From assembly GCF_009914755.1 (NCBI RefSeq), contig NC_060931.1: a stretch of 64,000 nucleotides of DNA; one strand, 5' to 3'. The translations under genes were made by a program, and so were the position numbers. Below the pieces are notes generated by a model. It had not been told where the DNA came from. It was given only the letters and a program-made list of their open reading frames with translations, and made no database searches. Source of the DNA: the human T2T-CHM13v2.0 reference genome, Homo sapiens. Each line of letters starts with the position of its first letter. Within the stretch, counting starts at the first letter, position 1. Positions 10,170 through 13,100 of the stretch are shown in pieces.

Positions 10170-13100
10170 TCAATTCCCACCTATGAGTGAGAATATGCGG
10201 TGTTTGGATTTTGCACTTGTGATAGTTTACTGAGAATGATGATTTCCAATTTCATCCATGTCCCTACAAAGGACATGAACTCATCATTTTTTATGGCTGC
10301 ATAGTATTCCATGGTGTATATGTGCCACATTTTCTTAATCCAGTCTATCATTGTTGGACATTTGGGTTGGTTCCAAGTCTTTGCTATAGTGAATAATGCT
10401 GCAATAAACATACGTGTGCATGTGTCTTTATAGCAGCATGATTTATAGTCCTTTGGGTATATATCCAGTAATGGGATTGCTGGGTCAAAGGGTATTTCTA
10501 GTTCTAGATCCCTGAGCAATTGCCACACTGACTTCCACAATGGTTGAACTAGTTTACAGTCCCACCAACAGTGTAAAAGTGTTCCTATTTCTCCACATCC
10601 TCTCCAGCACCTGTTGTTTCCTGACTTTTTAATGATTCCCATTCTAACTGGTGTGAGATGGTTATCTCATTGTGGTTTTGATTTGCATTTCTCTGATGGC
10701 CAGTGATGATGAGCATTTTTTCATGTGTTTTTTGGCTGCATAAATGTCTTCTTTTGAGAAGTGTCTGTTCATGTCCTTCACCCACTTTTTGACGGGGTTG
10801 TTTGTTATTTTCTTGTAAATTTGTTTGAGTTCATTGTAGATTCTGGATATTAGCCCTTTGTCAGATGAGTAGGTTGCAAAAATTTTCTCCCATTTTGTAG
10901 GTTGCCTGTTCACTCTGATGGTAGTTTCTTTTGCTGTGCAGAAGCTCTTTAGTTTAATTAGATCCCATTTGTCAATTTTGGCTTTTGTTGCCATTGCTTT
11001 TGGTGTTTTGGACACGAAGTCCTTGCCCATGCCTATGTCCTGAATGGTAATGCCTAGGTTTTCTTCTAGGGTTTTTATGGTTTTGGGTCTAACGTTTCAG
11101 TCTTTAATCCATCTTGAATTGATTTTTGTATAAGGTGTAAGGAAGGGATCCAGTTTCAGCTTTCTACATATGGCTAGCCAGTTTTCCCAGCACCATTTAT
11201 TAAATAGGGAATGCTTTCCCCATTGCTTGTTTTTCTCAGGTTTGTCAAAGATCAGATAGTTGTAGATATGTGGCGTTATTTCTGAGGGCTCTGTTCTGTT
11301 CCATTGATCTATATCTCTGGTTTGGTACCAGTACCATGCTGTTTTGGTTACTGTAGCCTTGTAGTATCGTTTGAAGTCAGGTAGCGTGATGCCTCCAGCT
11401 TTGTTCTTTTGGCTCAGGATTGACTTGGCGATGCGGGCTCTTTTTTGGTTCCATATGAACTTTAAAGTAGTTTTTTCCAATTCTGTGAAGAAAGTCATTG
11501 GTAGCTTGATGGGGATGGCATTGAATCTGTAAATTACCTTGGGCAGTATGGCCATTTTCACGATATTGATTTTTCCTACCCATGAGCATGGAATGTTCTT
11601 CCATTTGTTTGTATCCTCTTTTATTTCCTTGAGCAGTGGTTTGTAGTTCTCCTTGAAGAGGTCCTTCACATCCCTTGTAAGTTGGATTCCTAGGTATTTT
11701 ATTCTCTTTGAAGCAATTGTGAATGGGAGTTCACTCATGATTTGGCTCTCTGTTTGTCTGTTGTTGGTGTATAAGAATGTTTGTGATTTTTGTACATTGA
11801 TTTTGTATCCTGAGACTTTGCTGAAGTTGCTTATCAGCTTAAGGAGATTTTGGGCTGGGACAATGGGGTTTTCTAGATATACAATCATGTCGTCTGCAAA
11901 CAGGGACAATTTGAATTCCTCTTTTCCTAATTGAATACCCTTTATTTCCTTCTCCTGCCTAATTGCTCTGGCCAGAACTTTGAACACTATATTGAATAGG
12001 AGTGGTGAGAGAGGGCATCCCTGTCTCATGCCAGTTTTCAAAGGGAATGCTTCCAGTTTTTTCCCATTCAGTATGATATGGGCTGTGGGTTTGTCATAGA
12101 TAGCTCTTATTATTATGAAATACATCCCATCAATACCTAATTTATTGAGAGTTTTTAGCATTAAGGGCTGTTGAATTTTGTCAAAGGCCTTTTCTTCATC
12201 TATTGAGATAATCATGTGGTTTTTGTCTTTGGTTCTGTTTACATGCCGGATTACATTTATTGATTTGCGTATATTGAACCAACCTTGCATCCCAGGGATG
12301 AAGACCACTTGATCATGGTGGATAAGCTTTTTGATGTGCTGCTGGATTCGTTTTGCCAGTATTTTATTGAGGATTTTTGCATCAATGTTCATCAAGGATA
12401 TTGGTCTAAAATTCTCTTTTTTGGCTGTGTCTCTGCCCAGCTTTGGTATCAGAATGATGCTGGCCTCATAAAATGAGTTAGGGAGGATTCCCTCTTTTTC
12501 CATTGATTGGAATAGTTTCAGAAGGAATGGTACCAGTTCCTCCTTGTACCTCTGGTAAAATTCGGCTGTGAATCCATCTGGTCCTGGACTCTTTTTGGTT
12601 GGTAAATATTGATTATTGCCACAATTTCAGCTCCTGTTATTGGTCTATTCAAAGATTCTACTTTTTCCTGGTTTAGTCTTGGGAGAGTGTATGTGTCGAG
12701 GAATTTATCCATTTCTTCTAGATTTTCTAGTTTATTTGCGTGAAGGTGTTCGTAGTATTCTCTGATGGTAGTTTGTATTTCTGTGGGATCGGTGGTGATA
12801 TCCACTTTATCATTTTTTATTGTGTCTATTTGATTCTTCTCTCTTTTTTTCTTTATTAGTCTTGCTAGAGGTCTATCAATTTTGTTGATCCTTTCAAAAA
12901 ATCAGCTCCTGGATTGATTGATTTTTTGAAAGGTTTTTCATGTCTCTATCTCCATCAGTTTTGCTCTGATCTTAGTTATTTCTTGCCTTCTGCTAGCTTT
13001 TGAATGTGTTTGCTCTTGCTTTTCTAGTTCTTTTAATTGTGATGTTTAGGTGTCAATTTTGGATCTTTCCTGCTTTCTCTTGTGGGCATTTAGTGCTATA

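What the first reader, a model, noticed from the sequence alone, without database searches (positions are those of the whole stretch)
12892..13005. 114-bp ectopic gene-conversion tract: the young L1PA2/3 carries an exact patch of the old L1PA7 copy 38 kb away
Seen: 12892-13005 is identical to 50868-50981 (same strand), while the two elements differ repeatedly on both sides. The patch has about 8 variants relative to the young-type sequence at ~146-260 of this window. Several of them (sense strand GCAAAACTGATGG, ACCTTTC, AATCAATCAATCC, GCTGATTT) are also absent from the other old copy at 55141-55260, so they look private to the 50.9-kb element. Inference: recent non-allelic gene conversion from the old copy to the young copy, with a tract of about 70 bp (12902-12971) to 114 bp and no crossover, between noticeably diverged templates.
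Basis: partly seen in the sequence, partly recalled or inferred. Interest (0 to 1): 0.8.

Follow-up and report, generated by a model that had tools for sequence, protein, structure and literature searches.

The report
Short gene-conversion patch between two L1s
A 70-114 base stretch of a full-length, fairly young L1 retrotransposon was overwritten with the sequence of a much older, decayed L1 copy 38 kb away: a clean example of a known process, ectopic gene conversion between dispersed repeats.

Summary
Window 12892-13005 equals 50868-50981 exactly, a maximal run of 114 bp, in an alignment that is otherwise about 88% identical.

I compared the recipient with 28-29 close relatives and the donor with 20 relatives. 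Both sets were chosen on flanking sequence only.
- The recipient (full-length L1, 9956-15984, minus sense) departs from its relatives at 10 consecutive informative sites, 12902-12971. All 10 carry the state of the old copy (48490-51507).
- The 64 informative sites to the left and the 65 to the right never carry it.
- Five of the ten states are private to the old copy. None of 50 other copies carries more than one of them.
- A whole-genome scan finds the core 73-mer, with up to 3 mismatches allowed, only at these two places.

The direction is therefore old to young. The tract is 70-114 bp, there was no crossover, local identity was about 90%, and no perfect block exceeds 35 bp.

The patch brought two in-frame ORF2 stop codons into the recipient.

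"Recent" is only weakly constrained. The subfamily names and read-level support could not be tested. This is a known kind of event, and interest is modest.

The parts
12892..13005 (-). Maximal converted tract in the recipient (young) L1. It is bounded by the first flanking sites where recipient and donor differ, 12891 and 13006.
   Evidence: Exact 114-bp identity with 50868-50981; flanking informative sites.
12902..12971 (-). Minimal converted tract: 10 consecutive informative sites (12902, 12916, 12920, 12931, 12939, 12940, 12950, 12954, 12961, 12971) that carry donor states.
   Evidence: At each site 26-28 of the 28 young relatives have another state. The result is the same with 29 relatives.
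50868..50981 (-). Donor stretch in the old, 5'-truncated L1.
   Evidence: Five of the states are private to this copy among 20 old and 28 young relatives plus two other window copies.
9956..15984 (-). Recipient: a full-length L1 of 6029 bp, minus sense, with a short poly-A tail (run of T at 9957-9964 on the + strand). ORF2 is broken.
   Evidence: Ends read. Pfam Exo_endo_phos in 13457-13921 and RVT_1 in 11100-12626. It departs from the majority of 29 relatives at 64 of 3416 bases outside the patch.
9944..9955 (.). Target-site duplication, left copy (12 bp).
   Evidence: The same 12-mer occurs at 9944 and 15985 and nowhere else in 9901-16100.
15985..15996 (.). Target-site duplication, right copy (12 bp).
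48490..51507 (-). Donor element: an old, 5'-truncated L1. It aligns in two blocks, 48490-48931 and 48954-51507, and lacks about 570 bp of the recipient's coordinates between them.
   Evidence: 84.2% and 88.0% identity to the recipient. Its right flank has no relative above 92% in the genome.
12902..12904 (-). In-frame ORF2 stop codon inside the patch, shared with the donor. It is made by a donor-private variant.
   Evidence: None of the 29 young relatives has a stop here.
12938..12940 (-). Second in-frame ORF2 stop codon inside the patch, shared with the donor. It is made by the states at 12939/12940, which 8 of 20 old relatives also carry.

Best explanation
This is a non-allelic (ectopic, intrachromosomal) gene conversion without crossover. 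After the full-length L1 at 9956-15984 had inserted, a lesion in it near 12.9 kb was repaired using the old, same-orientation L1 copy 37,976 bp downstream as template. The lesion was most likely a double-strand break or a gap, repaired by synthesis-dependent strand annealing. Between 70 and 114 bp of the old copy, with the private mutations it had accumulated, replaced the young element's own sequence; the donor stayed unchanged.

Shown: the mosaic pattern, the donor's identity, the direction, the tract bounds, the absence of rearrangement, and the import of two ORF2 stop codons.

Inferred: the kind of initiating lesion, the repair pathway, and that the event happened in the germ line and after insertion.
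For: 1. The exact 114-bp identity sits in an alignment of 88% identity. The expected number of such runs is 1.4e-4.

2. The relatives were chosen on flanking sequence only, so the choice is independent of the patch. There were 29 loci; 28 were used, where L042 was dropped because it covered only part of the region, and all 29. The recipient differs from their majority at 10 sites in 12902-12971, and at all 10 it equals the old copy.

3. The informative sites in 12300-13535, that is the sites where the old copy differs from the young majority, read as follows. The first 64 do not carry the donor state (61 carry the young state, and at 3 the recipient differs from both). The next 10 carry the donor state. 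The last 65 carry the young state.

4. Outside the tract, only 3 of 189 informative sites in 11650-13535 match the old copy. A run of 10 then has a probability of about 3e-15.

5. The patch is native to the donor.
- Three of the states (12920, 12950, 12971) are the majority state of the 20 old relatives (19-20 of 20). Two more (12939, 12940) occur in 8 of 20.
- Five (12902, 12916, 12931, 12954, 12961) occur in 0-3 of the 48 relatives.
- Of 50 other copies, 47 carry none of these five and 3 carry one.
- The donor departs from its relatives' majority at 8 of 114 sites inside the patch and 10 of 157 outside. The recipient departs at 10 of 114 inside and 4 of 157 outside.

6. The combination is unique.
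- BLAST of the 114-mer against the window's whole assembly gives 100% only at the two loci, and the next best hits are 95% (40 of 1846 candidates scored).
- The 28 best look-alikes carry at most 2 of the 5 private states.
- A whole-genome pattern scan of the 73-mer 12910-12982, with up to 3 mismatches allowed, finds only the two loci.

7. There was no rearrangement. The recipient is full length with a 12-bp target-site duplication. The donor is in place. Both flanks are single copy: the best other matches are 98% and 92%.

8. All 10 sites were transferred en bloc: 4 weak-to-strong, 4 strong-to-weak and 2 neutral changes, counted by me from the table. This looks like copying of one strand, not patchy mismatch correction.
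Against: No reads, no other human haplotype and no ape orthologue could be examined. An unconverted ancestral allele has therefore not been seen, and read support for the patch in the assembly is assumed, not shown.

Local identity between the donor and the inferred pre-conversion recipient was only about 90% (42 differences in 416 columns). The longest perfect block nearby is 34-35 bp. That is poor homology for mammalian homologous repair. The 38 kb separation also exceeds the roughly 10 kb range over which elevated Alu-Alu conversion has been reported (passages of PMC6598467 and PMC8230782).

The genome BLAST scored only 40 of 1846 candidates, and the tool says it skips very common words. 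The pattern scan is the firmer test of uniqueness, but it leaves out site 12902.
Confidence: 0.88

Rival explanations
1. Replication-based template switching. A stalled fork or a broken end in the young L1 briefly copied the old copy and returned (an MMBIR/FoSTeS-like short templated patch), instead of classical double-strand-break repair by strand annealing. The product is the same; the initiating event and the enzymes differ.
For: The homology is poor: about 90% identity and no perfect block above 35 bp. The tract is short and uninterrupted, with all 10 sites copied and no GC bias. Both features are compatible with a microhomology-tolerant copying mechanism.
Against: Nothing in the sequence separates this from strand-annealing repair. 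There are no insertions, deletions or junction microhomology scars at the tract edges: both edges lie in stretches where the two copies are identical, of 10 and 34 bp.
Confidence: 0.07
2. Assembly or polishing artefact. Reads or consensus from the old copy were wrongly applied to the young copy in the assembly.
For: Not excluded directly, because no reads or independent assemblies were available. Scans of two other collections for the 73-mer found nothing.
Against: The two copies differ by about 12% on both sides of the patch, so reads from one should not align to the other. Both loci are single copy. The assembly comes from an essentially homozygous cell line, with a stated consensus accuracy of about 1 error per 10 Mbp (passages of PMC9186530). 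Ten clustered errors that all match one paralogue would be extraordinary.
Confidence: 0.03
3. Chimeric cDNA at the time of insertion. The L1 reverse transcriptase switched from the young L1 RNA to an RNA containing the old copy and back, so the patch dates from the insertion itself.
For: Template switching by the L1 reverse transcriptase is known in general (recalled, not tested here).
Against: It needs two precise in-register switches within 114 bp. The donor lies only 38 kb away out of thousands of old copies genome-wide (6775 first-look candidates for its flank). That is expected for DNA-level repair and is a coincidence for an RNA-level event. Had the patch dated from insertion, 2.6-4.3 differences between the two copies would be expected by now, and none is seen (P 0.073 for a 70-bp tract, 0.014 for 114 bp).
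Confidence: 0.015
4. Recombinant source lineage or parallel mutation. The variant combination was inherited from a master element, or it arose independently.
For: None found.
Against: None of the 28-29 closest relatives of the young element has the combination. No third locus in the genome lies within 3 mismatches of the 73-mer. The 10 changes include two transversions, and five of them are private to one decayed, 5'-truncated copy that cannot have been a source element.
Confidence: 0.005

Closest known systems
Non-allelic gene conversion between Alu elements, including old-to-young 'life after death' cases (PMC8230782 and PMC6598467; passages read)
   Same: Non-reciprocal transfer between dispersed retrotransposon copies of different subfamilies gives mosaic elements. 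It is recognised by three or more coherent neighbouring diagnostic changes. Transfer from an old, inactive copy into a younger one has been reported (12 Alu cases). The rate rises with proximity and identity.
   Different: Here the partners are L1 elements, and the exact donor is identified through its private mutations. They lie 38 kb apart, against the under-10 kb range reported for elevated Alu conversion. The tract lies inside ORF2 and carries stop codons.
[quoted passage not shown] I saw only its title in a reference list and one citing sentence in PMC1920257. The paper itself is not held.
   Same: An L1 copy is repaired from another, diverged L1 copy with short tracts. The citing paper mentions tracts as small as 13 bp.
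   Different: That was an induced break in cultured mouse cells. Here the product is natural, in a human genome, and the initiating lesion is unknown.
Intrachromosomal gene conversion inserting a diverged L1 segment, locus NCLI34 (PMC1920257; passage read)
   Same: A diverged L1 segment inside an L1 has its best match downstream on the same chromosome, and this was read as intrachromosomal gene conversion.
   Different: That segment was 377 bp long, 98% identical to its proposed donor, and part of a complex non-classical insertion. Here the patch is 114 bp, 100% identical, and sits in an otherwise ordinary full-length insertion.
Interlocus gene conversion between segmental duplications and duplicated genes (general knowledge; Mansai et al. 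2011 seen only as a citation)
   Same: Short non-reciprocal tracts between paralogues on one chromosome, with no crossover.
   Different: Those partners are usually much more alike than the roughly 90% local identity found here (recalled).

Membership tests
Non-allelic (ectopic) gene conversion tract | A contiguous run of informative sites carries the donor's states and is flanked on both sides by sites that carry the recipient lineage's states. | tested here: met
   In 12300-13535 there are 64 non-donor sites, then 10 donor sites, then 65 non-donor sites. The relatives were chosen on flanks only.
Non-allelic (ectopic) gene conversion tract | An identifiable donor whose own lineage-specific or private variants appear in the recipient, which gives the direction. 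| tested here: met
   Five donor-private states occur in 0-3 of 48 relatives. No other copy carries more than 1 of them among 50 copies, or more than 2 among the 28 best genome-wide look-alikes. The core is unique in the genome.
Non-allelic (ectopic) gene conversion tract | Non-reciprocal: the donor is unchanged and keeps its own type through the tract. | tested here: met
   The donor departs from its relatives at 8 of 114 sites in the patch and 10 of 157 in the flanks. One site, 12986, is ambiguous: the donor has the state of the young lineage, which 4 of 20 old relatives also have.
Non-allelic (ectopic) gene conversion tract | No associated crossover or rearrangement. | tested here: met
   The recipient is full length with a 12-bp target-site duplication. 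The donor and the 38-kb interval are present.
Non-allelic (ectopic) gene conversion tract | The unconverted ancestral state is seen at the orthologous locus or in another haplotype. | not testable with these tools
   No other human or ape genome is available here. Scans of two other collections found nothing.
LINE-1 element (recipient) | ORF2 with endonuclease and reverse-transcriptase domains, a poly-A tail and a target-site duplication. | tested here: met
   Pfam Exo_endo_phos (E 6e-12) and RVT_1 (E 3e-43).
Subfamily names L1PA2/3 (recipient) and L1PA7 (donor) | Diagnostic positions of the named subfamily consensus sequences. | not tested
   No repeat library was available. Only divergence fits. 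The recipient is 1.9% from the majority of its relatives (64 of 3416). The donor is about 6-7% from the majority of its relatives (18 of 271), and its best relatives are 91-92% identical. One paper places the L1Pa7-L1Pa3 families at 30-10 million years ago (PMC7449397, passage).

The most novel reading that the evidence does not exclude
Decayed L1 fossils act as donors that disable nearby younger full-length L1s through short homeologous conversion. Here the transfer brought two premature ORF2 stop codons from a dead copy into a full-length element. It happened at only about 90% identity, with no perfect block above 35 bp, and across 38 kb. If the recipient was still coding-competent at the time, this would be a direct instance of retrotransposon inactivation by ectopic conversion. 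It would also suggest that conversion among dispersed L1s reaches further, in distance and in divergence, than the Alu-based picture.
Probability: 0.15. Interest if true: 0.5.

Novelty: new member of a known kind. Interest (0 to 1): 0.3.

Why it matters
This is an unusually clean, fully resolved example. The donor, recipient, direction and tract bounds (70-114 bp) are all read directly from the sequence, because the donor's private mutations serve as markers.

It shows three things.
- Human repair can copy between L1 copies that are only about 90% identical and 38 kb apart.
- Such events create clusters of linked substitutions (10 in 70 bp), which inflate divergence-based ages of repeats and can mimic mutation clusters.
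- Old dead copies can pass disabling mutations to younger elements.

The process itself is well known for Alu, LTR and L1 elements, so a single case adds an example, not a principle.

Tried and rejected
1. I looked for independent human sequence carrying the patch. Exact scans of genome contigs and viral contigs for the 73-mer found nothing. This says nothing either way.

3. I looked for a recombination-hotspot motif. The 13-mer CCNCCNTNNCCNC (recalled) has 4 matches in the window, against 0.55 expected. The nearest to the recipient tract is 2.8 kb away (10097-10109). The nearest to the donor tract is about 950 bp away (51925-51937), outside the element. No conclusion was drawn.

4. A second candidate tract was an 87-bp exact run between the old copy and another young L1 fragment (31944-32030). 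I rejected it. The matching stretch of the recipient (about 11805-11905) is simply well conserved, with only 2 informative sites in 100 bp.

5. Three scattered sites outside the tract where the recipient equals the old copy (12168, 12189, 12233) are not contiguous. Between 2 and 7 of the 29 young relatives do not carry the majority state there. I read them as lineage polymorphism, not a second tract.

Twenty short regions of 281 bp were fetched instead. The old-relative comparison therefore covers only 12786-13065.

7. Tremblay et al. 2000 could not be read.

8. The literature searches on L1 conversion found no paper describing this locus. They cover only the held open-access library.

Full report
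**Observation**

Window 12892-13005 is identical to 50868-50981 on the same strand. The run is maximal at 114 bp, and the 114-mer occurs nowhere else in the window. The two L1 copies align over 10971-13535 against 48954-51507 at 88.0% identity. On either side of the run they differ every 5-15 bases. Under uniform divergence the expected number of exact runs this long in that alignment is 1.4e-4. It is the most extreme run among all self-matches of the window.

**Anatomy**

The recipient is a full-length L1 in minus sense.
- Its 5' end is at 15984.
- A short poly-A tail reads as a run of T at 9957-9964 on the + strand.
- A 12-bp target-site duplication sits at 9944-9955 and 15985-15996.
- It lies inside an older L1 of the opposite orientation.
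- Pfam finds the endonuclease domain in 13457-13921 and the reverse-transcriptase domain in 11100-12626. The patch therefore lies in ORF2 between the two domains.

The donor is a 5'-truncated old L1 in the same orientation. It aligns as 48490-48931 plus 48954-51507 and lacks about 570 bp of L1 sequence in between. The two tracts are 37,976 bp apart. A third, independent old copy covers the same L1 region at 55031-55795 and is 87.7% identical to the donor. A young-type copy in the opposite orientation lies at 1-1293.

**Test design**

To avoid circularity, I picked relatives by flanking sequence only.
- The recipient's right flank, 13006-13535, was searched against the window's whole assembly. 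Of 1271 candidates 40 were scored: the locus itself at 100% and 39 others at 98%. Twenty-nine of those 39 were cut as 3.5-kb loci.
- The donor's right flank, 50982-51507, gave the locus itself at 100% and 39 others at 91-92%, out of 6775 candidates with 40 scored.
I fetched 281-bp regions around the patch for the top 20 instead.

**Result**

With 28 young relatives (one partial locus, L042, dropped), the recipient departs from their majority at 10 sites inside the patch: 12902, 12916, 12920, 12931, 12939, 12940, 12950, 12954, 12961 and 12971. At each of these sites 26-28 of the 28 relatives have another state, and at all 10 the recipient equals the old copy.

With all 29 relatives over 3.5 kb, the recipient departs from the majority at 74 of 3530 bases, and 10 of the 74 fall in the 114-bp patch.

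Informative sites are those where the old copy differs from the young majority. In 12300-13535 they read as follows:
- 64 sites that do not carry the donor state: 61 carry the young state, and at 3 the recipient differs from both;
- then 10 sites that carry the donor state;
- then 65 sites that carry the young state.

Over 11650-13535, only 3 of the 189 informative sites outside the tract match the old copy. A run of 10 then has a probability near 3e-15. In one search, one further 'shared' site at 11506 and the first alignment bin (55 differences in 143 columns) are artefacts of the alignment edge. I left them out by starting at 11650.

**Direction**

Among the 20 old relatives, the states of the ten sites fall into three groups:
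- 12920, 12950 and 12971 carry the old-type majority state (19-20 of 20 old relatives, 0-2 of 28 young).
- 12939 and 12940 carry a state found in 8 of 20 old relatives.
- 12902, 12916, 12931, 12954 and 12961 carry states found in 0-3 of the 48 relatives.

Of 50 other copies (20 old, 28 young and two window copies), 47 carry none of the last five states and 3 carry one.

The donor departs from its relatives' majority at the same rate inside the patch (8 of 114) as outside (10 of 157). The recipient departs at 10 of 114 inside against 4 of 157 outside. The patch is therefore native to the old copy and foreign to the young one.

**Uniqueness**

- BLAST of the 114-mer against the whole assembly gives 100% only at the two loci, and the next best hits are 95% (40 of 1846 candidates scored).
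- Those 28 look-alikes, although selected for similarity to the patch, carry at most 2 of the 5 private states. None carries the state at 12954.
- A pattern scan of the whole assembly for the 73-mer 12910-12982, with up to 3 mismatches allowed, finds only the two loci and no reversed-pattern control hits.

A recombinant source lineage is thus not supported.

**Tract and homology**

The tract is at least 12902-12971 (70 bp) and at most 12892-13005 (114 bp). Its ends lie in stretches where the copies are identical anyway, of 10 bp on the left and 34 bp on the right.

Before the event, the donor and the inferred recipient sequence were about 90% identical locally: 42 differences in 416 columns over 12742-13155. 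No perfect block in 12300-13535 exceeds 35 bp.

The ten changes are 4 weak-to-strong, 4 strong-to-weak and 2 neutral, counted by me. There is no GC bias, and the whole stretch was copied.

**Consequence for the element**

Reading ORF2 through this region shows two in-frame stop codons inside the patch, at 12902-12904 and 12938-12940. Both are shared with the donor. None of the 29 young relatives has a stop at the first.

The recipient also has lesions of its own: a stop at 13046-13048 and a one-base deletion near 12606. Whether the conversion hit a still-intact element cannot be told.

**Timing**

Outside the patch the recipient departs from its relatives' majority at 1.87% of bases (64 of 3416). 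Suppose the patch dated from the insertion and both copies have since changed at that rate. Then 2.6 differences (70-bp tract) to 4.3 differences (114-bp tract) would be expected, and none is seen: P = 0.073 to 0.014.

The event is therefore probably later than the insertion, but no tight date follows. One paper places the L1Pa7-L1Pa3 families at 30-10 million years ago (PMC7449397, passage). The subfamily names themselves were not tested here.

**Mechanism and rivals**

The pattern is the textbook product of non-reciprocal repair of a lesion in one repeat from a nearby paralogue, without crossover. Whether it ran by strand annealing after a double-strand break or by a replication template switch cannot be read from one product.

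An assembly artefact is unlikely but untested. The copies differ by about 12% around the patch, and both loci are single copy. The assembly is stated to have about 1 error per 10 Mbp and to come from an essentially homozygous line (PMC9186530, passages).

A chimeric cDNA at the time of insertion is disfavoured by the donor's proximity and by the timing argument above.

**Comparison with what is known**

- Gene conversion among dispersed repeats is well documented for Alu. The record includes 12 cases of old elements replacing younger ones and elevated rates within about 10 kb (PMC8230782 and PMC6598467, passages).
- For L1, an intrachromosomal conversion case (PMC1920257, passage) and break repair from endogenous LINEs in mouse cells (citation only) were seen. 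A 1991 title on L1 gene conversion was seen in a reference list.
- My four literature searches found no description of this locus. They cover only the held open-access library.

**Verdict**

This is a new, very clean member of a known kind of event. Interest is modest (0.3). It would be higher only if population or ape data showed a recent, polymorphic event, or if a genome-wide survey showed that such low-homology, long-range L1 conversions are common.

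Noticed in passing
window 9700-9955 and 15997-16250: The full-length L1 sits inside an older L1 of the opposite orientation. The host sequence continues seamlessly across the 12-bp target-site duplication.
   Followed up: partly
window 15156-15683: The only RefSeq functional element in the window (an enhancer) lies within the 5' UTR region of the recipient L1, a few hundred bases from its 5' end at 15984.
   Followed up: no
window 12986 / 50962: Inside the maximal tract the old copy carries the state of the young lineage (28 of 28 young relatives), where 16 of 20 old relatives have another state and 4 of 20 share it. 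This could be ordinary subfamily variation or a trace of repair in the opposite direction. A single site cannot decide.
   Followed up: partly
window 11981-11982, 12027-12028, 12742-12743, 13047-13048: The recipient has four private changes that affect two adjacent bases at once, relative to the majority of 29 relatives. One of them makes its own ORF2 stop. Tandem double substitutions look over-represented among its roughly 64 private changes.
   Followed up: no
window 48931-48954: The donor L1 lacks about 570 bp of L1 sequence (recipient coordinates 10400-10970) at this junction.
   Followed up: no
window 31337-33889 and 56085-57241: Two further young-type L1 3' fragments lie in inverted orientation. 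They are 96.6% and about 96% identical to the recipient's 3' part and 96.3% identical to each other. No conversion signal was seen between them and the old copy.
   Followed up: partly
window 61001-61661: A region that matches itself at several offsets (about 145, 203, 273 and 335 bp) at 80-83% identity, suggesting a degenerate tandem array.
   Followed up: no
window 38920-39694: A stretch that matches its own reverse complement at 75% identity over 794 aligned columns (775 bp of sequence), that is an inverted repeat pair. It coincides with two adjacent masked repeats.
   Followed up: no
window 10097-10109, 23162-23174, 51925-51937, 57081-57093: Four matches to the 13-mer CCNCCNTNNCCNC against 0.55 expected from shuffles. 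At least the one at 10097-10109 is a run of C, within the 3' part of the recipient L1.
   Followed up: no
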